The notes beneath the pieces are model-generated. The model was not told the origin of the DNA. It did not search any database and worked only from the letters and a program-made list of their open reading frames with translations. Source: Candidatus Eiseniibacteriota bacterium (GTDB taxonomy: Bacteria > Eisenbacteria > RBG-16-71-46 > SZUA-252). From it: a stretch of DNA of 64,000 nucleotides. The stretch covers positions 9,131 to 73,130 of the forward strand of contig QJVW01000069.1 in NCBI GenBank assembly GCA_003235575.1. Direction: 5' to 3'. Both the position numbers and the translations under genes were made by a program. Shown here one piece after another: positions 12,688-58,232 of the stretch. Each line of letters starts with the position of its first letter. The first letter of the stretch is position 1.

Positions 12688-12864
12688 GTCGATAAATTCG
12701 GTGGAAAACGCAGCAACTCGTTGCAAGAGAGCCCATTGCGCTAGCCCTGCGCATACCGGCGCGCCCGGTTATGCACAGACGTGCGTCAACCCTGTAACAA
12801 TCGTACGCGGCGCGCGGACCCCCCAACGGGGCGGTCCCCGCCCAACCCGAACGAAAGGTCTTCG

Positions 12865-13881
12865 ATGAAAGAGTCCGTCGCTTCCCGCGACGTCGAACTT
12901 CTCGACGAGTTGAAGCAGGCAAGGGCCTCCATCGTCGCCGAGCTCCGCAAGGTGATCGTCGGCCACGAAGAGGTCGTGGAGCAGTTGCTGACGGCGCTCT
13001 TCGCGAACGGGCACTGTCTTCTTGTCGGCGTGCCGGGTCTCGCGAAGACGTTGCTTGTGTCGACCGTCGCGCGCGCGCTCGATCTGGAATTCAGCCGCAT
13101 TCAATTCACGCCGGACCTCATGCCGTCCGACATCACCGGCACCGAGATTCTCGAAGAGGATTCCTCGACGGGGCGACGCTCCTTCAAATTCATCCGTGGT
13201 CCGATCTTCGCCAACGTCCTGCTCGCGGACGAAATCAACCGGACGCCGCCGAAGACACAGGCCGCGCTGCTGCAGGCGATGCAGGAGTACCGCGTCACCG
13301 CCGGCGGCGAGACGCATTCGCTGTCGCTCCCGTTCTTCGTGCTGGCGACGCAGAATCCGATCGAGTTCGAGGGAACGTATCCGCTTCCCGAGGCGCAGCT
13401 CGATCGGTTCATGTTCCACGTCTCCGTTTCCTACCCCAGCGACGAGGAGGAACAGCGCATCGTCGCGACGACGACCAGCGCGTACGAAGCCGACGTGCAA
13501 CGCGTCCTCGGCCGCGATCGGATTCTGGAACTTCAGAAATTGGTGCGACGGATTCCGGTGTCGGAGCACGTCGTCCGCTACGCCGTTCATCTCACGCGCG
13601 CCTCGCGTCCGGGACCCGACTGCGCGGCGTTCGTGCGCGACTGGGTTTCGTGGGGCGCCGGCCCGCGCGCGGCGCAGTACCTGGTGCTGGGAGCAAAGGC
13701 CCGCGCCGCGCTCCACGGACGGCCGACGCCAAGCGAGGACGACGTGCGCGCGGTGGTTCGCCCCGTGCTCCGACACCGCATCATTCCGAACTTCACGGCG
13801 GAGGCCGACGGCATTTCGAGCCTCGACATCATCGCGAAGCTTCTCGAGACGGTGCCCGGTTCGGATGGAGCTCGGGGCTAG
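12865..13881 (+). CDS. MoxR-family AAA+ ATPase
   Basis: Walker [22 protein letters not shown], Walker [25 protein letters not shown], and typical MoxR length (338 aa). Confidence 0.88.
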
Positions 13882-13917
13882 CGGCGCCGGTCCGGCCCCG
13901 ACCCGCCCCACGAACCG

Positions 13918-14814
13918 ATGAGCGACGACCGACCACGGCTTCTCGACCCGGTCTTCATCTCCAAGCTCGCCCGTCTCGACCTGCAGGCGCGGCTGGTGGT
14001 GGAGGGATTTCTGACGGGGTTGCACCGTAGTCCGTACCACGGGTTTTCCGTCGAGTTCGCCGAGCACCGCCAGTACATGCCGGGCGATCCGCTCCGGCAC
14101 CTCGACTGGAAGGTGCTCGCGAAGTCCGACCGGAAATACCTGAAGCAGTACCAGGAGGAGACGAACCTCCGCGCACACCTGCTGGTCGACACCAGCGCGA
14201 GCATGGGCTACGGCACCAGCGGCGTCACCAAGCTCGACTACGCGCGCCAGTTGGCCGCGTCGCTGGCGTACCTCATCCTGGGGCAGCACGACGCGGTCGG
14301 GCTCTTCGGGTTCGCCCAGGGGCGGGGCGAGCAGATTCCGGCGCGCTCCACGATGGGGCATCTTCGGCCGCTCCTCCTGCTCCTCGAGCGTCTCACGGCC
14401 GGAGGCGGCACGGACTTCACCGCCTCGTTGCACACGCTGGCGGAGCGCATCACGCGGCGCGGTCTCGTCGTGATCCTCTCGGATCTCCTCGACGAGCCCG
14501 AGAAGATCGCCCAGGCGATTCATCACTTCCGTCACCGGCGCCACGAGGTCCTGGTGTTTCACATTCTGGATCCGCAGGAGGTCGCGTTCGACTTCGAGCG
14601 GGAGGCCGTTTACGTGGACGTCGAAGGCGGTCCACGCGTGACGACCCGGCCCCGCGAGCTGCGCGACGACTATCGCGCCCGCATCCAGGCTTGGCGCGCG
14701 CGGCTTCGCACGATCTGCATCGAGAAGCGCGCCGACTACATGGCGCTGACCACCGACGTTCCGTACGATCGCGCGCTGCTCGAATATCTTGCAAAGAGGT
14801 CGCGGCTTCTGTAG
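13918..14814 (+). CDS. DUF58 protein (MoxR-associated, vWA-like)
   Basis: Motif HRSPYHGFSVEFAEHRQYMPGDPLRHLDWKVLAKSDRKYLKQYQEE is the hallmark DUF58 N-terminal motif. Immediately follows moxR. Confidence 0.8.
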   Translation: MSDDRPRLLDPVFISKLARLDLQARLVVEGFLTGLHRSPYHGFSVEFAEHRQYMPGDPLRHLDWKVLAKSDRKYLKQYQEETNLRAHLLVDTSASMGYGTSGVTKLDYARQLAASLAYLILGQHDAVGLFGFAQGRGEQIPARSTMGHLRPLLLLLERLTAGGGTDFTASLHTLAERITRRGLVVILSDLLDEPEKIAQAIHHFRHRRHEVLVFHILDPQEVAFDFEREAVYVDVEGGPRVTTRPRELRDDYRARIQAWRARLRTICIEKRADYMALTTDVPYDRALLEYLAKRSRLL

Positions 14815-14835
14815 CCGCGGGGAGCCCCCGGTCCC

Positions 14836-16950
14836 ATGCCGACCTTCTCGTTCCTGAACCCCGGTTTTCTGTGGGCGCTGCCCGCGGCGGCCATTCCGCT
14901 CCTGATTCACCTTCTCAGCCGACGGCGCTTGCCGGAGATCCCGTTTCCGACGACGTCCTTCCTGCAGACGCTGGAGCCGCGCGAAATCCGCCGGATCCGG
15001 CTGCGCGAACTGCTTCTGCTCCTCCTGCGCACGCTGGCGCTTCTCCTCTTCGTGCTCGCCTTCGCGCGGCCCGCCTTGACGCCGGCCGACGCCGTGACGC
15101 ACGCCGCGGCCGCGGTCGGGATCCTTCTCGACGACTCGGAGAGCATGGCCGCCGTCGACGAGCGCGGCCACGCGCGCATCGACGAGGCGAAAGCCCGCGC
15201 CGCGGCGCTCGTCGAGGCGTCGCGTTCGGGCGACGCCATCCTTCTGGCTTCGTCCACGCGCGAGGAAGCGCCGCGTCCGGATCGCGGGGACGACCGCGTG
15301 CGCCTGCGCCGCGCGGTCGATCGCATCGAGGCTTTGCCGCGTCCCGCCTCGATGGCGCCGACGCTCGGCGGGCTGCGCCGGGCGATGGAGCGTAGCCCGC
15401 TCCCGTTCCGGGAGCTGTACGTCGTGAGCGACTTCCAGCGGTCCAACTTCAGCGATGCCGCGCGCGCCGAACTTGTCCGCGCCGCGACGGCGGGAATGCG
15501 CGTCTTTCTCGTGCCGGTGGCCGGCTCCTCGCTCCCCAACCGCGCCTTCGAATCGATCGATCCGGAGATCCGACCCGGGCCCGAGGGTCGCGGACTGGAG
15601 CTTCGCGCGCGTCTGGTGAATCACGCCAGCGCGCCCAGCGACCGGATCGCGATCCGACTGAGGGAAGGGGAGGCGCTGATCGGAGGCGGCGACGCGTCGC
15701 TCCGGGCCGGGGAACGCGCCTGGATCGCGATGCCGATCGAAGAGCGCGGGCTCGGCGTCTCCGGCTCGTCGCGCGAGACGCGCGTGACGGCGGAAATGGA
15801 CGAGGACGCGCTGGCGACCGATGACGTCTGGCACGCGGTGCTGGGCGCCCCGCGCCGGCTTCGCGTCCTGCGCATCGTGGAAGCGCGCGGCGGCGCGCCG
15901 CCGCGGTTCACGGCGCTGGCGCTCGATCCGTCGCGAAACGGGGCCTCCGGGTTTTCCGTCGAGGAGGGTTCGCCCGCGTCCCTGCTCTCGCTGACCGCCG
16001 GGCGCGCGGACGTCGTGCTGCTCGAGGACGTGGCGGCGCTGTCCGGCGACGCCGAGGCGCGCCTTCGCGCGTTCGTCCGCGACGGCGGCGGGCTCGTGGT
16101 CGCGATGGGGCCGCATGCCGACCCCGACTACTACAGCCGCCGGTTCTTCCCGGGCCTGATCGACCTCTCGCTTCAATCCGCGGCGCGCGCGCCCGACGGA
16201 GGCTCCTACGAATTGCGGGCTCGCGCCGCCGGCCACCCGATCCTCGAGGGCCTCTCGGTCGAGGTGGGCGCCCCGCTTTCCAAGGCGCGGTTGACGGGTC
16301 TGGTGCGCGGCAACGTCACCACGCCGCGCGCCGAGGTCGTGGTGCAGACGAGCAGCGGCCTGCCCGTCGTCGTCGCGGCGCCCTCGGTCGCGGTCTTCCT
16401 CTCCTCGCTGTCGGACGACTGGGGCGAACTGCCGTTTTCGGGCGCGTATGTCCCCCTGATTCGCGGCATGGTCAGCCACGCGGCACGGGCCGAGTCGGGC
16501 GCGCCACCCTCGCTCGTCGTGGGCGCCGCGCCGCGCATGCGCCTGGCCGCCGCGCCCTCCGGAGGCATCCGCGTCCGCGGACCGCGCGACTACGTCTCGA
16601 CCGCGACCGTGGAGGCGGAGGGCACGGGTTTTCGCGCCGTGGCGCTCGATCCAGCGCCGGCGCCCGGCTTCTACCAATTCGACACCGAAGGACAGATGCT
16701 CGGCACGGTCGCGGTGAACGTCGACCCCGTGGAGAGCGACCTCACCACGCTGCCGCCCGACTCGCTCCGCGCCGCGCTGCCGCCGGACGCACTGGAGCGG
16801 CTGACCGTGCTGCCGACCACCGCGGCCCTCACGCGCCATCTGCAGGCGACGCGCCGCGGCGAGGAGTTGTGGCTTCCGCTTCTCCTCCTCGCGGCCGTGC
16901 TCCTCGCGGTGGAAATCGCGCTCGCCAGCGCACGGCGGTTGAGCGCATGA
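14836..16950 (+). CDS. BatA-like membrane protein: N-terminal double-transmembrane domain plus vWA domain (MIDAS DDSESM)
   Basis: N-terminus MPTFSFLNPGFLWALPAAAIPLLIHLLSRRRLPEIPFPTTSFLQ (aerotolerance BatA N-terminal-type) with two TM helices, followed by ILLDDSESMAAVDE (DxSxS MIDAS motif). Operon partner of MoxR/DUF58. Confidence 0.7.
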   Translation: MPTFSFLNPGFLWALPAAAIPLLIHLLSRRRLPEIPFPTTSFLQTLEPREIRRIRLRELLLLLLRTLALLLFVLAFARPALTPADAVTHAAAAVGILLDDSESMAAVDERGHARIDEAKARAAALVEASRSGDAILLASSTREEAPRPDRGDDRVRLRRAVDRIEALPRPASMAPTLGGLRRAMERSPLPFRELYVVSDFQRSNFSDAARAELVRAATAGMRVFLVPVAGSSLPNRAFESIDPEIRPGPEGRGLELRARLVNHASAPSDRIAIRLREGEALIGGGDASLRAGERAWIAMPIEERGLGVSGSSRETRVTAEMDEDALATDDVWHAVLGAPRRLRVLRIVEARGGAPPRFTALALDPSRNGASGFSVEEGSPASLLSLTAGRADVVLLEDVAALSGDAEARLRAFVRDGGGLVVAMGPHADPDYYSRRFFPGLIDLSLQSAARAPDGGSYELRARAAGHPILEGLSVEVGAPLSKARLTGLVRGNVTTPRAEVVVQTSSGLPVVVAAPSVAVFLSSLSDDWGELPFSGAYVPLIRGMVSHAARAESGAPPSLVVGAAPRMRLAAAPSGGIRVRGPRDYVSTATVEAEGTGFRAVALDPAPAPGFYQFDTEGQMLGTVAVNVDPVESDLTTLPPDSLRAALPPDALERLTVLPTTAALTRHLQATRRGEELWLPLLLLAAVLLAVEIALASARRLSA

Positions 16951-39054: not shown

Positions 39055-40185
39055 GTGGGAATGACGCAACGAAGGTGGTGGGCCATGGCCGTGGCCGCGG
39101 CGCTTGCCTGGGGTATGGGCACCGTTCGAGGACAGGCCGAGGCCGCGGAGACGGGCTCCGACTACCCCCGCGGAAAGATCAGCGGGTACATCTGGGCCGA
39201 CACGTACTACAACGTGAGCGGCGACCCGGAGCATCGGTACAACTCGAGCGGCGCCGACTCGGCGAACCAGCTGATCAGCGGCTCGTATTCAGGTGGAATG
39301 CCGTCGGTGATCGGGCGCGATCTGAACGGCGTGCAGGTCCGGCGCGTCTACTTTCAGCACGACGGCGAGCTCTCGATCAAGTATTCGACCCGCTTCCGGC
39401 TCGAGGTGGACGGCAAGTCCCTCACGTCGGACGGCAAGTTGGGCGTCAACGTCAAGGCGGCCTATTTCCAAGCCAAGGAAGTCATCCCTCGGGGCAACTT
39501 TCTGGTCGGCGTGATCGGCACGCCCGTTTGGGAGACGTCCGAGGCGGCGTGGGGCTACCGTTCGATCGAGAAGACGATCGCCGACTTCCGAGGCCTGGGC
39601 AGCAGCGCCGACCTCGGGATTCAGATGAAGGGTTATGCCGATGAGGGGCGCAAGGTCGGCTACAACTTCGCGATCGGAAACGGCCTCGGACAGAAGCCCG
39701 AGAACAACCGGTACAAGAAAGTCTACTTCGGCCTTCCGCTTCGTCCCGCGAGCGACCTGACGATCGAGCCGTACGTGGACTACGAGTGGGGCGCGGGCGG
39801 CAAGGACAAGGCCACCTACAAGGTCTTCGTCGGATACGCCATGCGGAAGCTCTCGCTCGGCGCCGAACTGGTCGATCGTGTGAACCACAACCCGTCGGGA
39901 TCCAACACCGAACCCCTTGGACTCTCGTTCTTCGGAACCTATCGGACCAAGGAAACCATGGCGCTCTTCGCCCGCTACGACCGGTATCAGCCGGACACGC
40001 GCGCCGCGGACCGGATCGACGCCGACCTCTACGTCGCGGGCATCGACTGGATGGCGGCCCCGAACGTCTCCATCATGCCCAACGTTCTGGCGACGCAGTA
40101 CCGCGCGCGCGGCGCAGCGGAGGCGCCGCCTCACCACGACGTGCAGGCGCGCGTCACGTTCAACGTCAAGTTCTCGAAGCCGTAG
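39055..40185 (+). CDS. outer-membrane porin, probably phosphate-selective (OprO/OprP-like)
   Basis: Signal MTQRRWWAMAVAAALAWGMGTVRGQAEA, beta-rich with Gly/Tyr. Immediately upstream of pstS, downstream of a candidate Pho box. Confidence 0.5.
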   Translation: MGMTQRRWWAMAVAAALAWGMGTVRGQAEAAETGSDYPRGKISGYIWADTYYNVSGDPEHRYNSSGADSANQLISGSYSGGMPSVIGRDLNGVQVRRVYFQHDGELSIKYSTRFRLEVDGKSLTSDGKLGVNVKAAYFQAKEVIPRGNFLVGVIGTPVWETSEAAWGYRSIEKTIADFRGLGSSADLGIQMKGYADEGRKVGYNFAIGNGLGQKPENNRYKKVYFGLPLRPASDLTIEPYVDYEWGAGGKDKATYKVFVGYAMRKLSLGAELVDRVNHNPSGSNTEPLGLSFFGTYRTKETMALFARYDRYQPDTRAADRIDADLYVAGIDWMAAPNVSIMPNVLATQYRARGAAEAPPHHDVQARVTFNVKFSKP

Positions 40186-48751: not shown

Positions 48752-49660
48752 GTGCTCGAAATCCTCCGTGGCATCAACGTCGACTGGATGCAGCGTCGCC
48801 GCATCGCCTACGCGGTGTCCGGCCTGGCTGTGCTTCTTTCGATCGGCTCGCTGGTCCTGCACGGCGGCCCGCGCTACGGCGTCGATTTCACGGGCGGGAC
48901 CCTGATGGAGGTCGAGATCGCGCCGGCCCCGGGCGTGGAGGCGGTGCGCGACGTCGTGACGGGCGTGGGCGTGGAAGGGGCGGAAATTCAGCGCCTCGAT
49001 CGCCCGGGCCTGTACCTCATCCGCATGGGCACGCGGGCCGGCGTCAAGGACCCCTCCCCGTCGATCCGCACCGCGCTGGAGCAGGCCATGAGCGACGCCG
49101 TCGTGACGGTCCATCGCGTCGAGACCGTCGGCCCCCGCGTCGGCAGCGAGCTCCGGAGCGCCGCGTTGAACGCGATCTTCCTGGCGTTGGGGCTGATTCT
49201 CGTCTACGTCGCCATCCGGTATGACTGGCGCTACTCGCTGGGCGCGATCGCCGCGCTCTTTCACGACGTCTTCATCGCCCTGGGCGCGGTCTCCATCACC
49301 AATCGCGAGGTCACGCTGACGGTCGTGGCGGCATTCCTGACGATCGCGGGTTTCTCGATCAACGATACGATCGTGGTGTTCGACCGAATTCGGGAGCGCC
49401 GCCAGACGATGCGCCGCGACCCGGCCGAGAAGGTCATGAACGTCGCGATCAACGAAACGCTCAGCCGCACCATCATCACGTCGCTGACCGTGGCCCTGAC
49501 GGTCGTGGCTCTCTTCTTCTTCGGCGGCGAGGTGATCCACGACTTCTCGTTCGCCATGCTCGTCGGCGTTGTGTTCGGGACGTACTCCTCCGTGTACGTC
49601 GCCAGCGCCCTGGCGCTCGAAACACAGCTGTGGCTCGAGGGAAGGGGTCGCAAGAAGTAG
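48752..49660 (+). CDS. secF: protein translocase subunit SecF
   Basis: GVDFTGGT...GFSINDTIVVFDRIRE SecF motifs; follows secD. Confidence 0.9.
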   Translation: MLEILRGINVDWMQRRRIAYAVSGLAVLLSIGSLVLHGGPRYGVDFTGGTLMEVEIAPAPGVEAVRDVVTGVGVEGAEIQRLDRPGLYLIRMGTRAGVKDPSPSIRTALEQAMSDAVVTVHRVETVGPRVGSELRSAALNAIFLALGLILVYVAIRYDWRYSLGAIAALFHDVFIALGAVSITNREVTLTVVAAFLTIAGFSINDTIVVFDRIRERRQTMRRDPAEKVMNVAINETLSRTIITSLTVALTVVALFFFGGEVIHDFSFAMLVGVVFGTYSSVYVASALALETQLWLEGRGRKK

Positions 49661-49707
49661 TCGCCGCGCCCCGGCCGCGGATCCCGCGCCCGGCCGACAT
49701 GGAGGGG

Positions 49708-50241
49708 ATGATGCGAATTCGCCGTCATCGCGGTCCCGGCCGCCCCTTCGTTGGCGTTCTCTGCTTCCTGGCGATCACATTGGCGCCCGGCCTTACGACC
49801 GCAGCCGAGAACGGCGCCGCGGCCGAACCGCCCGATGCTCCCAACGCTTCACCCGTCCGCGCCATGCCCCAGCGCACCCCCGCGCAGCTCTTCGCCGGGG
49901 TCGAGAGCGCCTGGGCCGCCGGCGCCGCCGCGACGATCGCCTCGTACTGCGACAGCGCGACCGCGCACGTCTCCCTCAAGCCCGGAGGCTCTCCCGCATC
50001 GGCGCCGACGCTGGGCGGCTTGAGCTTCCTGATCCACGACCAACTTCGCTTCGTCGTCACGAAACAGTTCCGCATCGTCCGGTTCGAGGTGGACGGAAAG
50101 AAGCGCACCGCCCGGGCGTGGGCGCGGTGGAACGGCGATTGGGGCGGCGCGAAGGGCGCCCGCGATCTGGAGGTCCAGCTTACCGCCCGCGCGCGTTCGG
50201 ACGGGCTGTGGCTCCTGACGGAAATACGAGCGAACGATTGA
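49708..50241 (+). CDS. hypothetical secreted protein
   Basis: Start MMRIRRH after GGAGGGG. Signal peptide FVGVLCFLAITLAPGLTTAAE. No recognisable domain. Confidence 0.4.
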   Translation: MMRIRRHRGPGRPFVGVLCFLAITLAPGLTTAAENGAAAEPPDAPNASPVRAMPQRTPAQLFAGVESAWAAGAAATIASYCDSATAHVSLKPGGSPASAPTLGGLSFLIHDQLRFVVTKQFRIVRFEVDGKKRTARAWARWNGDWGGAKGARDLEVQLTARARSDGLWLLTEIRAND

Positions 50242-51139: not shown

Positions 51140-51852
51140 ACATTCGCGTTCTGCAGCACGTCCCGCACGAAGGTCCCGCGGCGATCGCCGCGTGGGCCGC
51201 GGAGCGTGGGCACGCGCTCGCGACGACGCGACTCGATCGCGGCGAGCCCCTTCCCGCCGTCGAATCGTTCGATGCGCTGGTGTTGATGGGGGGGCCGATG
51301 AGCGTGCACGACGAGACGGCGTATCCGTGGCTGGTGGCGGAGAAGCGGTTTCTCGAGCAGGTGCTCCAATGCGACCGCCGCGTTCTGGGCGTCTGCCTCG
51401 GCGCGCAGCTGATCGCCGCGGCGTTGGGGCGCCGCGTCTACGCAGCGCCGGTGGCCGAGATCGGCTGGCATCCCGTGACCACGTTGCCGGCGGCGGCGCG
51501 CTCGCGGACCTTCGCGGAAATGCCGTCGCCAATGGTGCCGTTTCACTGGCACGGCGAAACGTTCGATTTGCCCGAAGGCGCGCTCCACCTGGCGAAATCC
51601 GAACCATGTCCGAACCAGGCGTTCGAGATCGAATTCGACGGAGGGCCCCAGCGCGGCGGGGCCCTGGCGCTCGCCCTCCAATTCCACCTCGAGGCGACCG
51701 AGGAGAGCGTGCGCGCGATGATCGAGGCCGATGGCGCCGCGCTCGCCCGCGTTCCGGGAGCACCCCGCCCCGAGGACCTGCTCGCCAAACCCTCCCTGTG
51801 GAAGGCGAACCGCCCCCTCCTGGACGACGTCCTCGACCGACTGATGTCCTGA
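51136..51852 (+). CDS. class I glutamine amidotransferase-like protein (cytoplasmic)
   Basis: Nucleophile elbow LGVCLGAQLIA and downstream H/E; ATGA overlap with the phosphoesterase. Confidence 0.7.
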   Translation: MNIRVLQHVPHEGPAAIAAWAAERGHALATTRLDRGEPLPAVESFDALVLMGGPMSVHDETAYPWLVAEKRFLEQVLQCDRRVLGVCLGAQLIAAALGRRVYAAPVAEIGWHPVTTLPAAARSRTFAEMPSPMVPFHWHGETFDLPEGALHLAKSEPCPNQAFEIEFDGGPQRGGALALALQFHLEATEESVRAMIEADGAALARVPGAPRPEDLLAKPSLWKANRPLLDDVLDRLMS

Positions 51853-52068: not shown

Positions 52069-52779
52069 ATGCGACTTAATGTTAAGGCGTTCTACATCGT
52101 TATTTCGGCGATTCTCCTCGTCGGCGCGGCCCTTCCCACGCCGGCGGCGTCGCAGACGGCCGGCCACCGCTCGGAGCTGTCGGGCGGATTCACGATCGCG
52201 CGCCTCAAGTACACGGGGGGAGGGGATTGGTACTCGGATGAGACCAGTCTCCGGAATCTGCTCCGCACGCTCCGGTCGCGGAACGACGTGCGCGTCGCCC
52301 AGGAAACCGAGGCCGTCGTCACGGCCACCGACCCCGAGTTGTGGAACTACCCCATGCTCTTCATGACGGGACATGGGAACGTGAAGATGAGCGACGAGGA
52401 GCGCCGCGCCTTGCGATCGTACCTCGATCAGGGCGGCCTGCTCTGGGCGGACGACAACTTCGGCCTCGATCCTTCGTTTCGCGCGCTGATGGCGCAGATC
52501 TATCCCGAGGAGGCGTTGACCGAGCTGCCGTTCTCCCACGAGATCTTTCGCGTGCCCAACGCGTTCCCCGGCGGACCGCCGAAGGTGCACGAACACGACG
52601 GCGGTCCGGCGCGCGTCTTCGCCCTGCACCACAAGGGCCGGATCGTGGTTCTCTACACCTTCGACGCCGATATCGGAAACGGCATCGAGGATCCCGGCAT
52701 TCACGACGACACCCCCGAGAAACGCGCCGCCGCGATGCGCTTCGCCGTGAACATCGCCATGTACGCGCTGTCCCATTGA
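52069..52779 (+). CDS. secreted GATase1-fold-like protein lacking a Cys nucleophile (DUF4159-like)
   Basis: Signal peptide ISAILLVGAALPTPAASQ. Motif YPMLFMTGHGNVKMSDEERRALRSYLDQGGLLWADDNFG has the ThuA/GATase1-like strand-turn architecture with D-D in place of Cys. Family name recalled from memory. Confidence 0.5.
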   Translation: MRLNVKAFYIVISAILLVGAALPTPAASQTAGHRSELSGGFTIARLKYTGGGDWYSDETSLRNLLRTLRSRNDVRVAQETEAVVTATDPELWNYPMLFMTGHGNVKMSDEERRALRSYLDQGGLLWADDNFGLDPSFRALMAQIYPEEALTELPFSHEIFRVPNAFPGGPPKVHEHDGGPARVFALHHKGRIVVLYTFDADIGNGIEDPGIHDDTPEKRAAAMRFAVNIAMYALSH

Positions 52780-52792
52780 GGTCGATCGACGC

Positions 52793-55700
52793 ATGAGCCC
52801 CGCCCACGACATCTTGGCCCTTCACCTCGCCCGGGCGAAGCGCGCCCTCTTCCGTCGCGCGGCCGAGCGGACCGCGCTCCCGCTCGTGGCGCTCGCCGCC
52901 GTGCTCGCGGCCCTGGCGCTCGTGATCGCATTGAGCATGACCCTCTACCGCGGGCACTACTCGCTGCTTCGCCTGGTTCTCCTGGCCGGCGGCGCCGCCC
53001 TCCTGGTGGCGGGCGTCTGGAGGATGCTCCGCGAGCACATGAACGAGGATCACATCGCGATCGCGACGGGATCGCTGGAGCCCGAGCGCAAGGATCAGAT
53101 CCTGGCCGCGCTGGAGCTCGCGCGCGAAGCGAAGCGGGAGGAGCGAACGCGGTCGGGTGGCGCGGACGAGGCCGGCCGCGCCGCGGCCCCCGAAGCTTCC
53201 GCTTCGTTGCGCGACGCGGCGATCGCCCACGCGGCGGAGACGACCGCGCGGTTGCCGCTCGAACGTCTCGCCGATTGGCCGGCGCGTCGACGCTGGATCG
53301 GCATCGCCGCGGGTTCGTTCGCCATCGCGGCGATCGCCGCCCTGTCCGGCGGCGCGCGCACGCCGACGGTGCTGGCGCACATCGCCGACCCCGCGTCCGC
53401 GCCCAAGGCGCCGATTTCGATCCGCGTGACGCCCGGCTCCACCGAGATCGAGGGGGGCGCCTCCGTGGTCGTGCGCGCGTTCGTGCGCGGATCGGGCGCC
53501 CGTCCGAAGATGCTGGTCTTCGATCGGCCGACCGAAGGCGGCGACCCCGCCTGGCGGGAGCGGGCCCTGGGCGATCCGGACACCGACACGCGGGGTGAAG
53601 CGCAGCGCGGCGAACGCGCCTACGAGGTGCGCCTCCCGAACGTGAAGGAGGATCTCCGGTACAAGGTGCGCGTCGCGGACGCCGAATCGCCGACGTTCGG
53701 TCTTTCGGTGCGGGACCTCCCGCGGGCCACGGGCTTCCGCATTCGCTACGACTATCCCGCCTACACCGGACTTCCGGACGAGGAGATCCGCGCCCTGACC
53801 GGGGATCTCGTCGCGCCGCGTGGAACCAAGGCGCGGCTCGAGGTCACCTTGAACCGCGACGCGGCCTCGGCCACGCTGATCGGCGAACGCACGCGCCTTC
53901 GCATCGACGGGGAGCGCGGGGAGCGGCTCGTGCGCTTCGACGTACCGATGCAACACGACGACGCCATCCTCGTGCGCCTCACGGACGCGCGCGGCCGTCG
54001 CTCCGACTTGGGTCCCTTCGAGCTTCGTGCGATTCCCGACCGGCCGCCGGCCGTGACGGTTCTCGCGCCCGACGTCGTGGCGGATGTCGGACGCGACATG
54101 GTCTCCGTGATCATCGCCGGCGTCACCGACGATCACGGCGTGCGCAAGGTGCTCCTCCGCTACCGGGCACGGGACGAGCAGGAAACGACGGACGTGCTCC
54201 ACGAGGAACGCGCCGGCTCGCGGGAACTTGCCGTGCGGTACACCTGGCCGCTCCAGCCGATGAATTTGCTCCCCGGCGAGGAAATCGCCTATCAAGTCGG
54301 CGCCGTCGACGGCAACGCCGTGGATGGACCCCAGACTACCTGGTCCGATGAGCGCCGGCTCCGCTTCCCCAGCGCGACCGAAATCCTTGCGTCGATGCAG
54401 CAGGAGCGAGACGAATCGATCGAGGCGCTGGAGGAAGCCGTTCGCGGCGCGCGCGAGTTGCAGCAACGGACCGAGGAGCTGCGCCAAGACCTGGGACGGT
54501 CCCGCGAAATGACGTGGGAGCAGCGCCAGGAGGTCCAGAAGGCGATCGAGGGGCAGCAGCAGCTGCGCGAGACGATCGACCAGGTGACCGACCAGCTCCA
54601 GCAGGGCGCGGAAAAGTTGTCCCAGTCGCGCGCGCTGAACGCAGAGCTGGTGCAGAAGATCACCGAACTGCAGGAGCTCCTGAGCCAGATCAAGGATCAG
54701 TCGCTGCTGCGCGCCATGCAACGGATGCAGCAAGCGATGAAGAACATGACGCCCGAGGAAATGGAGCGGGCGCTCCAGAACTTCAAGCTCTCGCAGGACG
54801 ACGTGCTCCGGAACATCGAGCGGACGATCGAGCTCTTGAAACAGATCCGCATGGAAGAGCGGCTCGAGACCGCTTCGGAACGCGCCGCCGAGATGGAACG
54901 CCGACAGATCGCGCTCAACGATTCACTGTCGCGCGCGCGCGAGAAGGAAGCGACCCAGTCGCTGGCGAAACGCGAGGCGGAGATCGCGGCGATGTCCGAC
55001 GAGCAAAAGAAGGCGATGGACGAGCTGGCGAAGGATCTTCAGTCGATGGATCCTCAGAGCGCGAAGGAGGCCCAGTCGCTGAGCCGCGACCTGGGCCCGG
55101 AGGGTCTGGAGCCGGAGCTCCAGCAGGCGGAGCAGCAGCTGGCGTCGGGCGACCGGGACGAAGCCAAGCCCTCCACCCAGTCGCTTCGCGAGCGGCTGGA
55201 AAGCCTGCGCCGCCGCACGGATCAAATGCGCGAGAACTTCCGGGATCGGAAGAAGAACGCGCTGGCGAAGGAGATGGAGGACGCGGCGCAGGATCTTCTC
55301 GACGTGGCGTCGCTCCAGGAGAGCATGCTGCGCGACGAGGAGAGCACCGTCGGCGAACGCGCGGAGAAGCAAAAGGGGCTGGAGGAGGCGACGGAGCAGG
55401 CGACGAAGAAGATCGCGGACATCGCCAAGCAGACGCTCTTCATGACGCCCGACGTGACCCAGGCCGTCGGTCGCGCGCTGCAAAATCAGGCGAGCGCCGT
55501 CGGCAGGTACTCCCAGCAGGACCTCATGGGCGGGCTGATGGGGACCAAGGAGTCCACGATCGCGCTGAACCAGGCCGCGACCGGTCTCCTCAAGGCCCGC
55601 GAATCGATGCAGGGATCGAAGTCGTCGACCGGCATGTCGGAGGCCATGCAGCAGATGCAGGGCCTGGCGGGCGACCAGCAGGCGCTGAACGATCAGGCGA

Positions 55701-56206
55701 TGGGCATGATGCCCGGCGGGCCCGGATCGCAGGACGGGAGCGGCGGCCGCCTGAGTCCCGGAGACGGCGAGGCGATGTCGCGCATGGCGGCGGAGCAGGA
55801 GGCGATTCGGCGCGGGCTCGAGGAAGCCCTGCAAAAGATGGGGAAGGGCGGCGGCAAGCCGCTGGGCGACATGGGGAACGTCGCGGACGAAATGAAGGCG
55901 GTGGAGCAGGACCTCCGGGCCGGCCGCCTCGATCAGGAAACGGTGCGGCGCCAGCAGCGGATTCTCAGCCGCCTTCTCGACGCGCCGCGCGCCGTGGAGA
56001 AGCGCGACTACTCGCGCAAGCGGAAGTCGCGACCCGGCGTCGACGTGGTCCGATCCTCGCCCGGCGCGCTCTCGCCGGAGCTCCTGAAGGCGAGGCCGTC
56101 CTTGGCGTCCCTCCTCGCGAAGGGAAGCCGCGATCCGGTGACGCCCGAGTTCCGCGCGTTGGTCGATCAATACCTCGAGTCGCTGATGAAGGAGGGGGGC
56201 CGATGA
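52793..56206 (+). CDS. giant membrane protein: 3 N-terminal TM helices, beta-rich extracytoplasmic domain, ~600-aa E/Q/R-rich coiled-coil C-terminal half (DUF4175-like)
   Basis: TM segments LPLVALAAVLAALALVIALSM, LLRLVLLAGGAALLVAGVW and WIGIAAGSFAIAAIAALSGG. A long heptad-like region (EELRQDLGRSREMTWEQRQEVQKAIEGQQQLRETIDQVTDQLQQ...). Start is 14 bp after the preceding gene's stop. Confidence 0.6.
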   Translation: MSPAHDILALHLARAKRALFRRAAERTALPLVALAAVLAALALVIALSMTLYRGHYSLLRLVLLAGGAALLVAGVWRMLREHMNEDHIAIATGSLEPERKDQILAALELAREAKREERTRSGGADEAGRAAAPEASASLRDAAIAHAAETTARLPLERLADWPARRRWIGIAAGSFAIAAIAALSGGARTPTVLAHIADPASAPKAPISIRVTPGSTEIEGGASVVVRAFVRGSGARPKMLVFDRPTEGGDPAWRERALGDPDTDTRGEAQRGERAYEVRLPNVKEDLRYKVRVADAESPTFGLSVRDLPRATGFRIRYDYPAYTGLPDEEIRALTGDLVAPRGTKARLEVTLNRDAASATLIGERTRLRIDGERGERLVRFDVPMQHDDAILVRLTDARGRRSDLGPFELRAIPDRPPAVTVLAPDVVADVGRDMVSVIIAGVTDDHGVRKVLLRYRARDEQETTDVLHEERAGSRELAVRYTWPLQPMNLLPGEEIAYQVGAVDGNAVDGPQTTWSDERRLRFPSATEILASMQQERDESIEALEEAVRGARELQQRTEELRQDLGRSREMTWEQRQEVQKAIEGQQQLRETIDQVTDQLQQGAEKLSQSRALNAELVQKITELQELLSQIKDQSLLRAMQRMQQAMKNMTPEEMERALQNFKLSQDDVLRNIERTIELLKQIRMEERLETASERAAEMERRQIALNDSLSRAREKEATQSLAKREAEIAAMSDEQKKAMDELAKDLQSMDPQSAKEAQSLSRDLGPEGLEPELQQAEQQLASGDRDEAKPSTQSLRERLESLRRRTDQMRENFRDRKKNALAKEMEDAAQDLLDVASLQESMLRDEESTVGERAEKQKGLEEATEQATKKIADIAKQTLFMTPDVTQAVGRALQNQASAVGRYSQQDLMGGLMGTKESTIALNQAATGLLKARESMQGSKSSTGMSEAMQQMQGLAGDQQALNDQAMGMMPGGPGSQDGSGGRLSPGDGEAMSRMAAEQEAIRRGLEEALQKMGKGGGKPLGDMGNVADEMKAVEQDLRAGRLDQETVRRQQRILSRLLDAPRAVEKRDYSRKRKSRPGVDVVRSSPGALSPELLKARPSLASLLAKGSRDPVTPEFRALVDQYLESLMKEGGR

Positions 56207-56967
56207 GGGCCGTCGCCGCCATCCTCGCCGCCACGATCGTCGCGGGCGCCTTCGGGCAAGAAGGCCGGGCCGTCGCCGCGCCGCAGCCGGAGAAGACGAC
56301 CCTTCCGCGCATGACGCTGACGCCGGCGGCGCCCGCGGACTCCGGCTCGGATCCCCGGACGTACGAGGCGACGATCCGCCGCTTCGCCACGCTCACCCCA
56401 TCCGATTCGATGGGGAACGGCGCGTACGCCGCGGCCGAGGCGGCGTTCGCGGCGGGCTCGTTCGACCAGGCGGCCAAGGCGTTCCATGATTTCGCCCGAC
56501 GCTATCCCCGCAATCTCAACGTCAACGATGCGCTATCGGCCATCCTCCTGATCCAGGAAGCGCGCGATTTCGAGGACCGACCGCTGCTTCTCTACGCGCG
56601 GGCGCGGGCGCATCGCGCCGGGGGACAGCCCGATTCGGCGCGGATTCTTCTCGCCGAGGCGGCGGAACGGTACCCGGGCGCCAAGGCGCGTCATCGAATC
56701 GCGTACATGCTGGCGGAATTGGCCCGTGAGCGCGCGGACCACGTCGGCGCCCTTCGCTGGGCGATGGTCGCGGCCGATACGGCATCCACGAACCGAACGG
56801 CCCCCTTCGCGCTTCGCATCGCGGCCGAATCGTCGCTCGATTTGGGCAAGCCGCCGCAGGAGGCGCTCGCCCTGTACAAGATCATCCTGGAGCGGTATCC
56901 CCACTCCGCGGTGACGCCGGAAGCCCGGGCGCGCGCGCTGCAGATCCGAAAGAGGATGCCGCAGTGA
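56203..56967 (+). CDS. secreted TPR-like protein (BatC/YbgF-like)
   Basis: Signal MRAVAAILAATIVAGAFGQEG; Ala-rich helical repeats (AYAAAEAAFAAGSFDQAAKAFHDFARRYP...). ATGA overlap with the giant gene. Confidence 0.5.
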   Translation: MRAVAAILAATIVAGAFGQEGRAVAAPQPEKTTLPRMTLTPAAPADSGSDPRTYEATIRRFATLTPSDSMGNGAYAAAEAAFAAGSFDQAAKAFHDFARRYPRNLNVNDALSAILLIQEARDFEDRPLLLYARARAHRAGGQPDSARILLAEAAERYPGAKARHRIAYMLAELARERADHVGALRWAMVAADTASTNRTAPFALRIAAESSLDLGKPPQEALALYKIILERYPHSAVTPEARARALQIRKRMPQ

Positions 56968-58232
56968 TGCGACTTCGCGCGCTGGTTCTGGCGGCCACGC
57001 TTGCCGTGGGGAGCCTGTGGCCCGCGGCAGCGGCCGCGCGCTTCCTGGTCCCCATGGACACGGCGCAGGCGGATCACCTGCGCGCGTATGGGCTCACGTA
57101 TTGGGCCCTCTCCCGCGGGCTGCACGGCGAGTGGCTGCTGAACTACCGCGGCGGCTCGTTCCTCCTTCCGGAGACGGAGAGTGTCCGCGAGGAGGCGTTG
57201 GTGCGCGGCGTGACCCTGGAGCAGGTGAGCGAGGCGGAGATCGCGCGCATCCAGGCGGAAATCGCGGACAACAACATGGAGACCATCAAACTGGAAACGG
57301 CCCCCCGCGTGGCCGTCTACGTCCCGCCGAATGCGCCGCCGTGGGACGACGCGGTGCAGCTGGCGCTGGAGTATGCCCAGATACCGTACACGAAGCTCTG
57401 GGACGCGGAGGTGCTGGACGGTCGGCTGGCCGACTACGATTGGCTCCACCTCCACCACGAGGACTTCACCGGGCAGTACGGAAAATTCTATGCCGCGTTC
57501 GCGTCCGCGGATTGGTACCGGCTGCAGGTCGCGGAGAACGAAGCCGTGGCCCAGCGCTACGGCTTCGCCAAGGTCTCGGAGCTGAAGAAGGCCGTGGCCC
57601 AATCGATCCGGCAATACGTCGCGCAGGGCGGTTTCCTGTTCGCGATGTGCTCCGCCACCGATACGTTCGACATCGCGCTCGCGGCGGCCGGCGTGGACAT
57701 CGTGTCGAAGGAGTATGACGGCGACGGTGTGACGCCGGGCGCGCAGGAGCGCCTCGATTTCAGCCGGACGCTGGCCTTCCAGAACTTCCAGCTGGAGATG
57801 AACCCGCTGGTCTACGAGTACTCGAACATCGATACCACGAACAAGGCGATCCTACGCGGACAGCGGGGCGACACCTTCACGCTGTTCGATTTCTCCGCGA
57901 AGCAGGATCCCGTGCCGACGATGCTGGTCCAGGACCACACGGCGACCATCAAGGGGTTCCTGGGCCAGACAACGGGCTTCGACAAGACGCTCCTCCGGCC
58001 GGGCGTGACGATCCTGGCGGAGACGCCGGGTTTCGACGACGTGAAGTACATCCACGGTCACTTCGGAAAGGGCACGTTCACGTTCTACGGGGGACACGAT
58101 CCGGAGGACTATCAACACGCGGTGGGAGATCCGCCCACCGATCTCTCCCTGCACAAGAACTCGCCGGGCTATCGGCTGATCTTGAACAACGTTCTGTTCC
58201 CCGCCGCCGAGAAGAAAGAGAAGAAGACGTAG
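56967..58232 (+). CDS. secreted GATase1-like domain protein with conserved Cys
   Basis: Signal MRLRALVLAATLAVGSLWPAAAAA. Motif RQYVAQGGFLFAMCSATD is paralogous to SYLDQGGLLWADD in the 52069..52779 protein. GTGATG overlap with the TPR gene. Confidence 0.5.
   Translation: MRLRALVLAATLAVGSLWPAAAAARFLVPMDTAQADHLRAYGLTYWALSRGLHGEWLLNYRGGSFLLPETESVREEALVRGVTLEQVSEAEIARIQAEIADNNMETIKLETAPRVAVYVPPNAPPWDDAVQLALEYAQIPYTKLWDAEVLDGRLADYDWLHLHHEDFTGQYGKFYAAFASADWYRLQVAENEAVAQRYGFAKVSELKKAVAQSIRQYVAQGGFLFAMCSATDTFDIALAAAGVDIVSKEYDGDGVTPGAQERLDFSRTLAFQNFQLEMNPLVYEYSNIDTTNKAILRGQRGDTFTLFDFSAKQDPVPTMLVQDHTATIKGFLGQTTGFDKTLLRPGVTILAETPGFDDVKYIHGHFGKGTFTFYGGHDPEDYQHAVGDPPTDLSLHKNSPGYRLILNNVLFPAAEKKEKKT

What the first reader, a model, noticed from the sequence alone, without database searches (positions are those of the whole stretch)
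52069..58232. Four-gene envelope module: DUF4159-like GATase1-fold protein - 1137-aa TM/coiled-coil giant - TPR protein - second GATase1-like secreted protein (function unknown)
A tightly coupled operon (14-bp gap, then ATGA and GTGATG overlaps) encodes two signal-peptide proteins that share the strand-turn motif Y(L/V)xQGG(L/F)L(W/F)A. The first has SYLDQGGLLWADD with no Cys; the last has QYVAQGGFLFAMCSATD with Cys. They flank a 3-TM giant protein whose C-terminal ~600 aa are an E/Q/R-rich coiled-coil, plus a TPR protein. Domains of this kind (DUF4159, DUF4175, BatC-like TPR) are, from memory, found next to MoxR/DUF58/BatA aerotolerance-like operons, but no biochemical function is established for any of them. 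Here the MoxR-DUF58-BatA half sits 35 kb away, so this is either a split system or an independent module. The catalytically dead / live GATase1 pairing is unexplained.
Basis: partly seen in the sequence, partly recalled or inferred. Interest (0 to 1): 0.72.

Follow-up and report, generated by a model that had tools for sequence, protein, structure and literature searches.

The report
Split Bat/MoxR envelope module, unnamed enzyme
Four tightly coupled genes encode the periplasm-facing half of a widespread but biochemically unexplained MoxR/DUF58/BatA ("Bat"-type) envelope system, and the fourth gene belongs to a very conserved, unnamed protein family that looks like a cysteine-dependent enzyme and may be the system's catalytic part.

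Summary
Four co-directional genes sit at 52069-58232, with a 13-nt gap and then two stop/start overlaps.

- **G1:** a secreted DUF4159 protein (Pfam E 8e-57).
- **G2:** a 1137-aa membrane protein with a marginal DUF4175 match. It has three TM helices, three beta-sandwich domains and about 550 aa of helical bundles.
- **G3:** a TPR protein.

The order G1-G2-TPR-G4 recurs in Eisenbacteria, Latescibacterota, Krumholzibacteriota, Marinimicrobia and Lentisphaeria. In Latescibacterota it is followed directly by MoxR-DUF58. In Gemmatimonadota, DUF4159, MoxR, DUF58, BatA and DUF4175 form one operon. The window therefore carries a split system.

G4 is the most constrained part, at 56-82% identity across phyla. 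Cys229 sits at a nucleophile elbow, and His165, Asp167, His378 and Glu381 are each about 96-97% conserved. NCBI's name for the family, "asparagine synthetase B", is not supported.

I read G4 as a thiol hydrolase or transferase held on a periplasmic scaffold; that reading is inferred, not shown. This is a new variant of a known but unexplained system. Interest is moderate.

The parts
52069..52779 (+). G1: secreted 236-aa DUF4159 protein with a GATase1-like fold and no Cys. Its invariant polar cluster is GGGDWY, TGHG(100-103), ADD(127-129), HEHD(174-177), D208 and H212.
   Evidence: Pfam PF13709 matches at E 7.9e-57 over the full length. The family profile matches PDB 4i66 at E 1.3e-17. Invariant residues come from nine module-linked orthologues. 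The N-terminal hydrophobic segment spans residues 1-28.
52793..56206 (+). G2: 1137-aa inner-membrane scaffold. The model shows a TM hairpin (within helices 3-80), helices at 85-160 that I place in the cytoplasm, a third TM helix (165-186), three beta-sandwich domains (209-524), helical bundles (528-1074) and a disordered tail.
56203..56967 (+). G3: 254-aa secreted TPR protein with no Cys, so it is not a lipoprotein. It is a shortened version of the 490-700-aa TPR protein found at this position in other phyla.
   Evidence: Pfam TPR_6 (E 6.8e-10), TPR_14, and YfiO just below its cut-off. YbgF and BamD NCBIfam models score far below their cut-offs. TPR genes lie immediately upstream of G4 in 35 loci.
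56964..58232 (+). G4: 422-aa secreted protein of an unnamed, very conserved family. It has an N-terminal alpha/beta domain (26-110) and a GATase1-like domain. Cys229 sits at a strand-helix nucleophile elbow. Other conserved motifs are HLHHEDFTGQ (162-171), GGHDPED (376-382) and SPGYRLILNN (400-409).
12781..13881 (+). MoxR-type AAA+ ATPase (AAA_3 domain plus AAA lid). Presumed cytoplasmic motor of the same system, 35 kb away.
   Evidence: Pfam AAA_3 at E 2.9e-62. Orthologues are adjacent to the module or to DUF4159/DUF4175 in L054, L014, L016, L086, L087 and L089.
13918..14814 (+). DUF58 (vWA-like) protein, partner of MoxR.
   Evidence: Pfam DUF58 at E 1e-44, plus VWA_2.
14836..16950 (+). BatA-like 704-aa membrane protein. 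It has an N-terminal double-TM domain, a vWA domain and a probable third GATase1-like region around residues 390-520. It contains no Cys.
   Evidence: Pfam BatA at E 1.2e-17, VWA_2 and TIGR02226. A weak ThuA hit at residues 393-474, E 0.21. The same LRxFVxxGG motif as in G1 and G4. The Gemmatirosa and Longimicrobiales orthologues hit GATase1_like (E 7e-4) and DUF4350 (weak) at the same place. Cys count.

Best explanation
The four genes encode the extracytoplasmic half of a MoxR/DUF58/BatA envelope system of the 'Bat' type, with MoxR of the MRP type. In this genome the system is split into two loci 35 kb apart.

**Shown by tool results.**
- The four genes form a conserved, translationally coupled module.
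- In other phyla their homologues share operons with MoxR, DUF58 and BatA.
- G1 and G4 both have the class-I amidotransferase-like fold.
- G2 is a three-TM protein with a large non-membrane part made of three Ig-like domains and helical bundles.
- G4 is by far the most constrained component. It keeps a lone Cys at a strand-helix elbow, together with His165, Asp167, His378 and Glu381.

**Inferred mechanism.**
- G2 is anchored in the inner membrane and projects a long scaffold into the periplasm.
- The TPR protein G3 acts as the adaptor.
- G1 is a non-thiol subunit with a His/Asp cluster, possibly binding a metal or ligand. G4 is held on the same scaffold.
- G4 is the catalytic subunit. It would be a Cys229/His378 thiol hydrolase or acyl/amido-transferase working through a thioester intermediate on an envelope substrate that is not yet known.
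- The cytoplasmic MoxR ATPase, with DUF58 and the BatA vWA protein, assembles or remodels the complex across the membrane, perhaps through G2's cytoplasmic helices (85-160).
- A lone catalytic thiol outside the cytoplasm would be oxidation-sensitive. That would fit the oxidative-stress and envelope phenotypes reported for Bat and cmd mutants.
For: **Module is real and conserved.**
- Gene coupling in the window.
- The same order G1-G2-TPR-G4 in 16 complete and 5 partial loci of the 83 examined. These come from Eisenbacteria, Latescibacterota, Krumholzibacteriota, Neomarinimicrobiota, Lentisphaeria and 'FCB group'. One further locus is L088.

**Link to MoxR/DUF58/BatA.**
- L054: G1-G2-TPR-G4-MoxR-DUF58, with a 120-bp gap before MoxR. 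L014 and L016 are similar.
- Gemmatirosa L086: X-DUF4159 - MoxR - DUF58 - BatA - DUF4175-like, contiguous.
- Longimicrobiales L087: TPR - DUF4159 - MoxR - DUF58 - BatA - DUF4175.
- Pedosphaera L089: MoxR - DUF58 - BatA - X - G2-like.

**Folds.**
- G1: PF13709 and PDB 4i66.

**Candidate active site of G4.**
- Cys229 follows strand 224-228 and precedes helix 230-240, in the small-x-Cys-small-small context A-M-C-S-A.
- GGHDPE follows strand 370-375, where GATases carry their His-Pro-Glu motif (position recalled from my own knowledge).
- Conservation in 365 sequences: C229 96%, H378 96%, H165 97%, D167 97%, E381 96%.
- One divergent homologue (P0147) has lost C229, H378 and H165 together.

**Constraint.** Against Latescibacterota L054, bit scores are G4 566 over 422 aa, G1 190 over 236 aa and G2 286 over 1137 aa.

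**Extracytoplasmic location.**
- Signal-like N-termini.
- 7 of 22 G4 homologues carry a T9SS C-terminal sorting domain.
- G1-G3 contain no Cys in 1627 aa, where 8.4 are expected (Poisson P 2e-4).

**Literature.**
- MoxR proteins act as maturation chaperones with vWA partners. RL3499 matters for membrane integrity and cell morphology (PMC3893208).
- BatA and MoxR stress phenotypes in Riemerella (PMC11834572).
- The BatA-type vWA domain is periplasmic in Borrelia BB0173 (PMC5700661).
- MoxR-DUF58 is paired with a transglutaminase in bifidobacteria (PMC12067865).
Against: - No substrate, activity or interaction has been measured for any component.
- I could not obtain model coordinates, so the spatial proximity of Cys229 to His378 is untested.
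- G4 occurs without G1, G2 or MoxR nearby in all 7 Pedobacter loci and in the Ignavibacteria loci. Its function therefore cannot depend strictly on them in cis.
- Some homologues are T9SS cargo and so probably act outside the outer membrane. This argues against one fixed periplasmic substrate.
- In the window the two halves are 35 kb apart with housekeeping genes between them, so co-regulation is unproven.
- Deleting the Bat genes in Leptospira gave no phenotype (PMC3557215).
- The DUF4175 match of G2 is marginal.
Confidence: 0.6

Rival explanations
1. The complex is structural only. G4 and G1 are non-catalytic GATase1-like interaction modules, as in GldG, IFT52 and OST48. The module is a passive envelope tether or spacer built on G2's long helical region, and the conserved polar residues serve binding rather than catalysis.
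Against: A lone Cys is 96% conserved at a nucleophile-elbow position in otherwise Cys-free extracytoplasmic proteins, with about 96-97% conserved His, Asp and Glu. Cys229, His378 and His165 are lost together in one divergent member. G4 shows 56-82% identity across phyla, which is unusually high for a mere adaptor.
Confidence: 0.25
2. The proteins are metal or redox clients. G4 (Cys/His) and G1 (His/Asp cluster) would be periplasmic metalloproteins or redox proteins. Their cofactor would be inserted or maintained by the MoxR-vWA machinery, as with CoxD for CO dehydrogenase or NorQ/NorD for NO reductase. The system would then handle metal or oxidative stress rather than hydrolysis.
For: G4 carries His-rich motifs HLHHED and GGHDPED plus Cys. 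G1 orthologues keep invariant H102, D128, D129, H174, H176, D177, D208 and H212. MoxR family members are documented cofactor-insertion chaperones (PMC3893208). Bat operons are linked to oxidative stress (PMC11834572).
Against: No known metal-binding family matches G1 or G4. The Cys sits in a classical nucleophile-elbow context rather than a Cys-x-x-Cys or His-x-His metal site. MoxR is cytoplasmic, whereas G1 and G4 are exported. No metal analysis is available.
Confidence: 0.2
3. The module is independent. The four genes would work on their own and have nothing to do with the MoxR-DUF58-BatA genes 35 kb away. The co-occurrence seen elsewhere would be coincidental.
For: The two halves are separated by about 35 kb of housekeeping genes in the window. 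In Eisenbacteria-type loci no MoxR lies within 10 kb. G4 often occurs alone.
Against: Direct adjacency is seen in three Latescibacterota loci. Single operons combine DUF4159 and DUF4175 with MoxR, DUF58 and BatA in two Gemmatimonadota, and a Pedosphaera (Verrucomicrobia) MAG has a G2-like gene in the same operon as MoxR, DUF58 and BatA. BatA-like proteins carry a third GATase1-like region with the same motif.
Confidence: 0.1
4. The module is a Tol-Pal- or BAM-type accessory. G3 would be a YbgF/CpoB- or BamD-like TPR protein, and the module would belong to those characterised envelope machines.
For: G3 gives weak hits to TIGR02795 (YbgF, 40.1 bits), TIGR03302 (BamD, 28.5 bits) and Pfam YfiO (24.8 bits).
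Against: All three scores are below the curated cut-offs (90.1, 81.4 and 25 bits). G3 has no lipobox Cys. No tol, pal or bam genes lie in the module or its conserved neighbourhood.
Confidence: 0.03

Closest known systems
Bacteroides aerotolerance (BatI) operon and MRP-type MoxR operons: MoxR-DUF58-BatA/BatB(vWA)-BatC(TPR)-BatD-BatE
   Same: The window has a MoxR AAA_3 ATPase, a DUF58 protein and a BatA_N+vWA membrane protein. TPR proteins are part of the system. The components face the envelope. The biochemical function is unknown despite stress phenotypes (PMC11834572, PMC5700661, PMC3557215).
   Different: In the window the BatB-E positions are not filled next to MoxR. Instead a distant locus encodes DUF4159, DUF4175, TPR and G4. 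G4 is not a described Bat component. The system is split into two loci. No BatD or SH3-domain (BatE-type) Pfam hit was seen among the proteins I scanned.
Rhizobium leguminosarum cmdA-D (RL3499-RL3502), the 'broadly conserved operon' needed for envelope integrity and cell morphology (Vanderlinde et al. 2011, cited in PMC3893208 and PMC5118466)
   Same: It is an MRP-type MoxR plus DUF58 followed by large membrane proteins, with an envelope phenotype. From memory, and not tested here, RL3501 and RL3502 are the BatA_N/DUF4159 and DUF4175 (TIGR02302) proteins of alphaproteobacteria.
   Different: G2 does not reach the alphaproteobacterial TIGR02302 model. DUF4159 here is a free secreted protein rather than a fusion. 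The cmd operon as described is four genes, so it has no place for a TPR-G4 pair. The paper itself was not available.
Class I glutamine amidotransferase-like superfamily (true GATases, ThuA-like, DUF4159, GATase1_like/DUF4350, MetA, DJ-1/PfpI)
   Same: G4 and G1 share the fold. G4 has Cys at the nucleophile elbow and an H-D-P-E motif after a late strand, like the Cys...His-Pro-Glu pattern of GATases.
   Different: No sequence model of the superfamily matches G4. G4 is exported. It has an extra N-terminal domain and an insert of about 100 aa (residues 241-345). No synthase partner is present. G1 has Asp in place of Cys.
PDB 4i66, Hoch_4089 of Haliangium ochraceum (a DUF4159 structure, uncharacterised)
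   Same: Same family as G1 (E 1.3e-17 with the family profile).
   Different: 4i66 lacks the TGHG, ADD and HEHD motifs that are invariant in module-linked G1 orthologues.
MoxR-DUF58-transglutaminase operons (bifidobacterial PFNA cluster)
   Same: An MRP-type MoxR and a DUF58 protein are paired with a Cys-dependent transamidase-type enzyme (PMC12067865). This is a functional analogy to G4.
   Different: The catalytic protein has a different fold (papain-like transglutaminase against GATase1-like). No homology exists, and the analogy is inference only.

Membership tests
DUF4159 (PF13709) - G1 | Full-length match to the Pfam model above the gathering score | tested here: met
   192.5 bits against a cut-off of 25.9, profile positions 1-202 of 202. 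Related to PDB 4i66.
DUF4175 (PF13779) / TIGR02302 - G2 | Match to the Pfam model above the gathering score over most of the profile, and a match to TIGR02302 | tested here: inconclusive
   30.8 bits against a cut-off of 27.3, but only profile positions 193-333 of 825. No TIGR02302 hit at E up to 0.1. Some homologues carry precomputed PF13779 or the NCBI name 'DUF4175 family protein'. The Gemmatirosa orthologue scores 26.0, just below the cut-off.
TPR proteins / BatC - G3 | TPR repeats above threshold. A BatC-specific model is not available. | tested here: met
   TPR_6 at 39.4 bits (cut-off 26.3) and TPR_14 at 37.7 bits (cut-off 23.5). BatC identity cannot be tested with these libraries.
Tol-Pal YbgF/CpoB (TIGR02795) and BamD (TIGR03302) - G3 | Score above the curated equivalog or subfamily cut-off. 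For BamD, also a lipoprotein Cys. | tested here: not met
   40.1 bits against 90.1, and 28.5 against 81.4. G3 has no Cys.
Class I glutamine amidotransferase fold - G4 | Alpha/beta fold similarity to GATase1-like structures | tested here: met
Class I glutamine amidotransferase enzymes - G4 | Sequence match to PF00117 or a related model | tested here: not met
   No Pfam or NCBIfam hit, even at E up to 10, for 22 family members, apart from weak BPL_N hits in 4. hhalign against the window's own GATase found nothing.
Class I glutamine amidotransferase enzymes - G4 | Cys-His-Glu triad: Cys at the nucleophile elbow, His and Glu after a late strand, in contact in 3D | tested here: inconclusive
   Cys229 lies between strand 224-228 and helix 230-240. 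His378 and Glu381 lie in GGHDPE after strand 370-375. All are about 96% conserved. The 3D distances could not be measured because no coordinates were available.
Asparagine synthetase B (the name NCBI gives to G4 homologues) | N-terminal Cys class-II amidotransferase domain plus an Asn_synthase domain, in a cytoplasmic protein | tested here: not met
   No GATase_7/GATase_6 or Asn_synthase hit. G4 has an N-terminal signal-like segment rather than an N-terminal Cys. The name appears and is a misnomer.
MoxR (MRP)/DUF58/BatA system - whole module | Presence of an AAA_3 MoxR, a DUF58 protein and a BatA_N/vWA protein in the genome | tested here: met
   Found at window 12781-16950.
MoxR (MRP)/DUF58/BatA system - whole module | Operon-level linkage of the module's genes with MoxR, DUF58 and BatA | tested here: met
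   Not linked in the window itself (35 kb apart). Adjacent in L054, L014 and L016. Forms one operon with these genes in L086, L087 and L089.
T9SS cargo - G4 | C-terminal Por_Secre_tail sorting domain | tested here: not met
   The window protein ends in ...AAEKKEKKT with no sorting domain. 7 of 22 homologues do carry PF18962.

The most novel reading that the evidence does not exclude
G4 founds a new, so far unmodelled family of exported Cys-His enzymes in the GATase1 fold. The family is conserved at 56-82% identity across the FCB superphylum. It would be the missing catalytic effector of Bat/MoxR-MRP envelope systems, for example a thiol transamidase or amidase acting on an envelope polymer or protein. 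Its lone oxidation-sensitive thiol would explain why these systems show 'aerotolerance' and envelope-integrity phenotypes.
Probability: 0.3. Interest if true: 0.75.

Novelty: new variant of a known kind. Interest (0 to 1): 0.55.

Why it matters
MoxR/DUF58/BatA ("Bat" or cmd) operons are widespread in bacteria. They have been tied to aerotolerance, stress survival, virulence and envelope integrity since 1999, yet no biochemical activity has been assigned to any of their envelope components.

This module shows three things. The DUF4159 and DUF4175 genes belong to that system even when they are physically split from it. GATase1-like domains recur three times in the system. In FCB-group bacteria the system recruits a fourth, extremely conserved protein with a plausible thiol active site.

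That gives experimenters a concrete handle, because a single nucleophilic Cys can be used to trap substrates. It also flags a large family (more than 8000 sequences) that lacks any family model and carries a misleading name in public annotation.

Tried and rejected
- **Sequence searches for G4.** Pfam, NCBIfam and PDB sequence searches found nothing. Scanning 22 family members at E up to 10 gave only T9SS tails and weak BPL_N hits.
- **Profile comparisons.** Comparing the G4 family with the G1 family aligned only the 16-residue motif. Comparing it with the window's cytoplasmic GATase aligned nothing.
- **Regulatory signals.** The promoter/terminator scan over the operon found nothing above shuffle expectation. 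Rfam had no hit anywhere in the window.
- **Literature.** DUF4159 appears only in a Pfam paper. Four papers mention DUF4175; I read none of them. Searching 'asparagine synthetase B' with T9SS gave nothing. The key Rhizobium paper, PMC3133104, is not held.
- **Plasmid search with G1.** It found a DUF4159 gene inside a resistance mosaic on a Corynebacterium plasmid. This is irrelevant to function.
- **Rejected readings.** Tol-Pal/BamD membership is rejected on score. AsnB identity is rejected because no AsnB-type domain is present. A mobile-element or defence-island origin is rejected because the neighbourhood is housekeeping: SecDF, SurA, PdxA, FtsEX, MetG and Mfd.
- **Upstream GATase.** The class-I GATase at 51142-51852 is not part of the module. 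In relatives a protein kinase gene on the opposite strand sits there instead.
- **Model coordinates.** They are not exposed, so triad geometry could not be measured.

Full report
**1. The observation**

The region 52069-58232 holds four + strand ORFs with coding-type composition (GC3 0.86-0.88).
- G1: 52069-52779, 236 aa.
- G2: 52793-56206, 1137 aa.
- G3: 56203-56967, 254 aa.
- G4: 56964-58232, 422 aa from the GTG. Public gene calls use the ATG at 56967 and give 421 aa.

G2 and G3 overlap in ATGA. G3 and G4 meet in GTGATG.

G1 and G4 begin with hydrophobic signal-like segments, and G3 has a short one. G2 has three hydrophobic helices within residues 23-188.

The shared motif is real. It reads RSYLDQGGLLWADD in G1 and RQYVAQGGFLFAMCSATD in G4. 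Cys229 is the only cysteine in all four proteins.

**2. What the four proteins are**

- **G1.** A full-length DUF4159 protein (E 7.9e-57). It is related to the uncharacterised structure 4i66.
- **G2.** It reaches the DUF4175 model only marginally: 30.8 bits against a cut-off of 27.3, over 141 of 825 profile positions. It does not reach TIGR02302. NCBI labels several homologues 'DUF4175 family protein'.
- **G3.** A TPR protein (TPR_6 and TPR_14). Its hits to YbgF and BamD are far below the curated cut-offs, and it has no lipobox Cys.
- **G4.** It has no Pfam, NCBIfam or PDB sequence match. With a 22-sequence alignment its model is confident (pLDDT 91.8).

**3. G4 is the unusual part**

- **Family size and conservation.** The family has more than 8000 members in the protein collection. 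The best 120 are at least 74% identical to the query. At least 597 genome loci encode it.
- **Taxonomic spread.** The window protein is 56-82% identical to homologues from Eisenbacteria, Latescibacterota, Krumholzibacteriota, Ignavibacteria, Chlorobiota, Zixibacteria, Cloacimonadota, Marinimicrobia, Lentisphaeria and cultured Pedobacter.
- **Few divergent branches.** A search of 50%-identity cluster representatives listed only about 20 roughly full-length members among its best 150 hits.
- **Relative constraint.** In the same Latescibacterota locus (L054) the bit scores are G4 566 over 422 aa, G1 190 over 236 aa and G2 286 over 1137 aa.
- **Conserved motifs**: LVPMD..Q.DHL.AYG, WLLNYRGGSF, HLHHEDFTGQ (162-171), GGFLFAMC229SATD, GGHDPED (376-382) and SPGYRLILNN.
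- **Candidate active site.** Cys229 sits between strand 224-228 and helix 230-240, in an Ala-Met-Cys-Ser-Ala context. That is the geometry of a nucleophile elbow. The H-D-P-E motif follows strand 370-375, which is where amidotransferases carry His-Pro-Glu (position recalled from my own knowledge).
- **Residue conservation in 365 sequences**: Cys229 96%, His378 96%, His165 97%, Asp167 97% and Glu381 96%.
- **Joint loss.** One divergent member (P0147) has lost Cys229, His378 and His165 together.
- **Limit of the evidence.** Model coordinates are not exposed, so contact between these residues is not shown.
- **The public name.** NCBI calls the family 'asparagine synthetase B'. No AsnB-type domain is present, so the name is a misnomer.
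- **Export.** Seven of 22 homologues carry a T9SS C-terminal sorting domain. This confirms that the family works outside the cytoplasm.

**4. G1 is not simply a dead copy**

Nine module-linked orthologues, 41-68% identical to the window's G1, share invariant GGGDWY, TGHG, ADD (at the position of G4's elbow), HEHD, D208 and H212. The solved DUF4159 protein 4i66 lacks these motifs.

The G1 and G4 families align by profile only over the 16-residue helix-GG-strand motif (E 5e-4, probability 32%). Their kinship is therefore at fold level.

The BatA-like protein at 14836-16950 shows the same motif (LRAFVRDGGGLVVA) and a weak ThuA hit. Its Gemmatirosa and Longimicrobiales orthologues hit GATase1_like and DUF4350 at the same place. 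The whole system thus appears to contain three GATase1-like domains.

**5. Conservation of the module and its link to MoxR**

I examined 83 loci: three from exact-sequence look-ups of two close G4 homologues and 80 from the genome scan.
- **Order conserved.** G1-G2-TPR-G4 appears in 16 complete and 5 end-truncated loci. These come from Eisenbacteria, Latescibacterota, Krumholzibacteriota, Neomarinimicrobiota, Lentisphaeria and an 'FCB group' MAG. One more locus was found through a distant G2 homologue (L088).
- **TPR length.** In most lineages the TPR protein is 490-700 aa. The window lineage has a 254-aa version.
- **Most constant neighbour.** A TPR gene immediately upstream is G4's most constant neighbour, seen in 35 loci. 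In Ignavibacteria clpX sometimes lies between the two.
- **G4 alone.** In seven Pedobacter genomes G4 stands alone.
- **Direct adjacency to MoxR.** In Latescibacterota L054 the module is followed after 120 bp by MoxR and DUF58. L014 and L016 are similar.
- **Single operons.**
  - Gemmatirosa kalamazoonensis has X-DUF4159, MoxR, DUF58, BatA_N+vWA+GATase1-like and a DUF4175-like 1268-aa protein.
  - A Longimicrobiales MAG has TPR, DUF4159, MoxR, DUF58, BatA and DUF4175.
  - A Pedosphaera MAG has MoxR, DUF58, BatA, an unknown protein and a G2-like protein.

The window's MoxR (12781-13881), DUF58 (13918-14814) and BatA-like (14836-16950) genes are therefore best read as the other half of one system. 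They are separated from the module by housekeeping genes: Mfd, SurA, PdxA, FtsEX, MetG and SecDF. No paralogues of any component occur elsewhere in the window.

**6. Mechanism**

*Shown:*
- The module is conserved and translationally coupled.
- It is linked at operon level to MoxR, DUF58 and BatA in relatives.
- The folds are as described above.
- There are exported-protein signals. G1-G3 have no Cys in 1627 aa, where 8.4 are expected from the window's other proteins (P about 2e-4). BatA704 also has none, leaving Cys229 as the only thiol.

*Inferred:*
- G2 is N-in/C-out, judged from its basic N-terminus and three TM helices. It projects Ig domains and helical bundles into the periplasm.
- G3 is the TPR adaptor.
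- G1 and G4 dock on this scaffold.
- G4 is a Cys229/His378 thiol hydrolase or acyl/amido-transferase. Within this fold, MetA, γ-glutamyl hydrolases and glutaminases all use a thioester intermediate.
- The cytoplasmic MoxR ATPase, with DUF58 and the BatA vWA protein, assembles or remodels the complex. This fits the chaperone role documented for MoxR proteins (PMC3893208) and the periplasmic vWA domain of Borrelia BB0173 (PMC5700661).

A lone extracytoplasmic catalytic thiol would be oxidation-sensitive. That offers a rationale for the oxidative-stress and envelope phenotypes of Bat and cmd mutants (PMC11834572; PMC3893208). Leptospira bat mutants, however, showed no phenotype (PMC3557215).

An analogy exists in bifidobacteria, where MoxR and DUF58 are paired with a transglutaminase, another thiol transamidase (PMC12067865).

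The substrate is unknown. The existence of T9SS-exported paralogues argues against a single fixed periplasmic substrate.

**7. Rivals**

- Metal or redox client proteins matured by MoxR, given the His-rich motifs.
- An independent module, which the operon evidence contradicts.
- A Tol-Pal/BAM accessory, which fails the score thresholds.

**8. Novelty and verdict**

The MoxR/DUF58/BatA system and its DUF4159 and DUF4175 companions are a known but unexplained kind. The split arrangement and the TPR-G4 addition make this a new variant.

G4 itself is a large, very conserved family with no family model and a wrong public name, and it is the part worth following up.

Interest is moderate (0.55). Nothing here overturns current views. 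It does give a concrete, testable catalytic candidate for a system whose function has been open since 1999.

Noticed in passing
window 56964-58232 and homologues P0124, P0127, P0129, P0132, P0142, P0122, P0138: About a third of the divergent G4 homologues (7 of 22) carry a C-terminal T9SS sorting domain (Por_Secre_tail). The window protein and most others end in a conserved basic tail...FPAA-x-KK-x-KKT. In the T9SS versions the sorting domain starts after the point where this tail ends.
   Followed up: partly
G4 family in public databases (e.g. WP_142774371.1 of Spirosoma; MAG entries): NCBI annotation names this family 'asparagine synthetase B'. No AsnB-type domain is detectable and the proteins are exported, so the name is a misnomer that is likely to spread.
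   Followed up: yes
window 52069-56967 and 14836-16950: G1, G2, G3 (1627 aa together) and the BatA-like protein (704 aa) contain no cysteine at all. The window's other proteins average 0.51% Cys. The single Cys of the module is the conserved Cys229 of G4.
   Followed up: partly
window 14836-16950 (residues ~390-520 of the BatA-like protein): There is a probable third GATase1-like region in the system. It gives a weak ThuA hit (E 0.21) and has an LRAFVRDGGGLVVA motif like those of G1 and G4. Orthologues in L086 and L087 hit GATase1_like (E 7e-4) and DUF4350 (weak) at the same position.
   Followed up: partly
L017, L022, L023, L027, L028, L036, L037, L050, L063, L079 (Ignavibacteria and relatives): In these lineages a clpX gene sits immediately upstream of G4. 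In L017 it lies between a 620-aa TPR gene and G4. An FAA-hydrolase gene often follows G4.
   Followed up: no
L085 = NZ_CP015623.1 129740-130357 (Corynebacterium crudilactis plasmid pCRULAC1): A stand-alone DUF4159 gene, 40% identical to G1, sits inside an IS26/Tn3 antibiotic-resistance mosaic next to a dihydrofolate reductase gene. It is far from its usual phyla and context.
   Followed up: no
window 51142-51852: A class-I glutamine amidotransferase (PF00117) with no predicted signal peptide lies directly upstream of G1. It is not conserved at this position in relatives, where a Ser/Thr kinase gene on the opposite strand sits instead. Its proximity to two GATase1-like genes looks coincidental.
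   Followed up: partly
window 49630-50241: A 203-aa ORF with no Pfam or NCBIfam match follows secF. It is conserved at the same position, SecD-SecF-X-metallophosphoesterase, in related contigs L001, L002 and L005.
   Followed up: no
window 32919-35417 and 39055-40185: Two sizeable ORFs (832 aa and 376 aa) with coding-type composition have no Pfam hit at E up to 1e-5.
   Followed up: no
L089 7232-9982, 13042-15906 and 15930-17048 (Pedosphaera MAG): In the Verrucomicrobia version of the operon, MoxR-DUF58-BatA is followed by 916-aa, G2-like 1006-aa, 954-aa and 372-aa proteins. None of these has a Pfam hit on record. They may be further lineage-specific envelope components of the same system.
   Followed up: no
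L054 2269-4494: In Latescibacterota a 741-aa beta-propeller protein (Reg_prop and PorZ_N-like hits) lies directly upstream of G1 on the same strand. It may be an additional member of the operon there.
   Followed up: no
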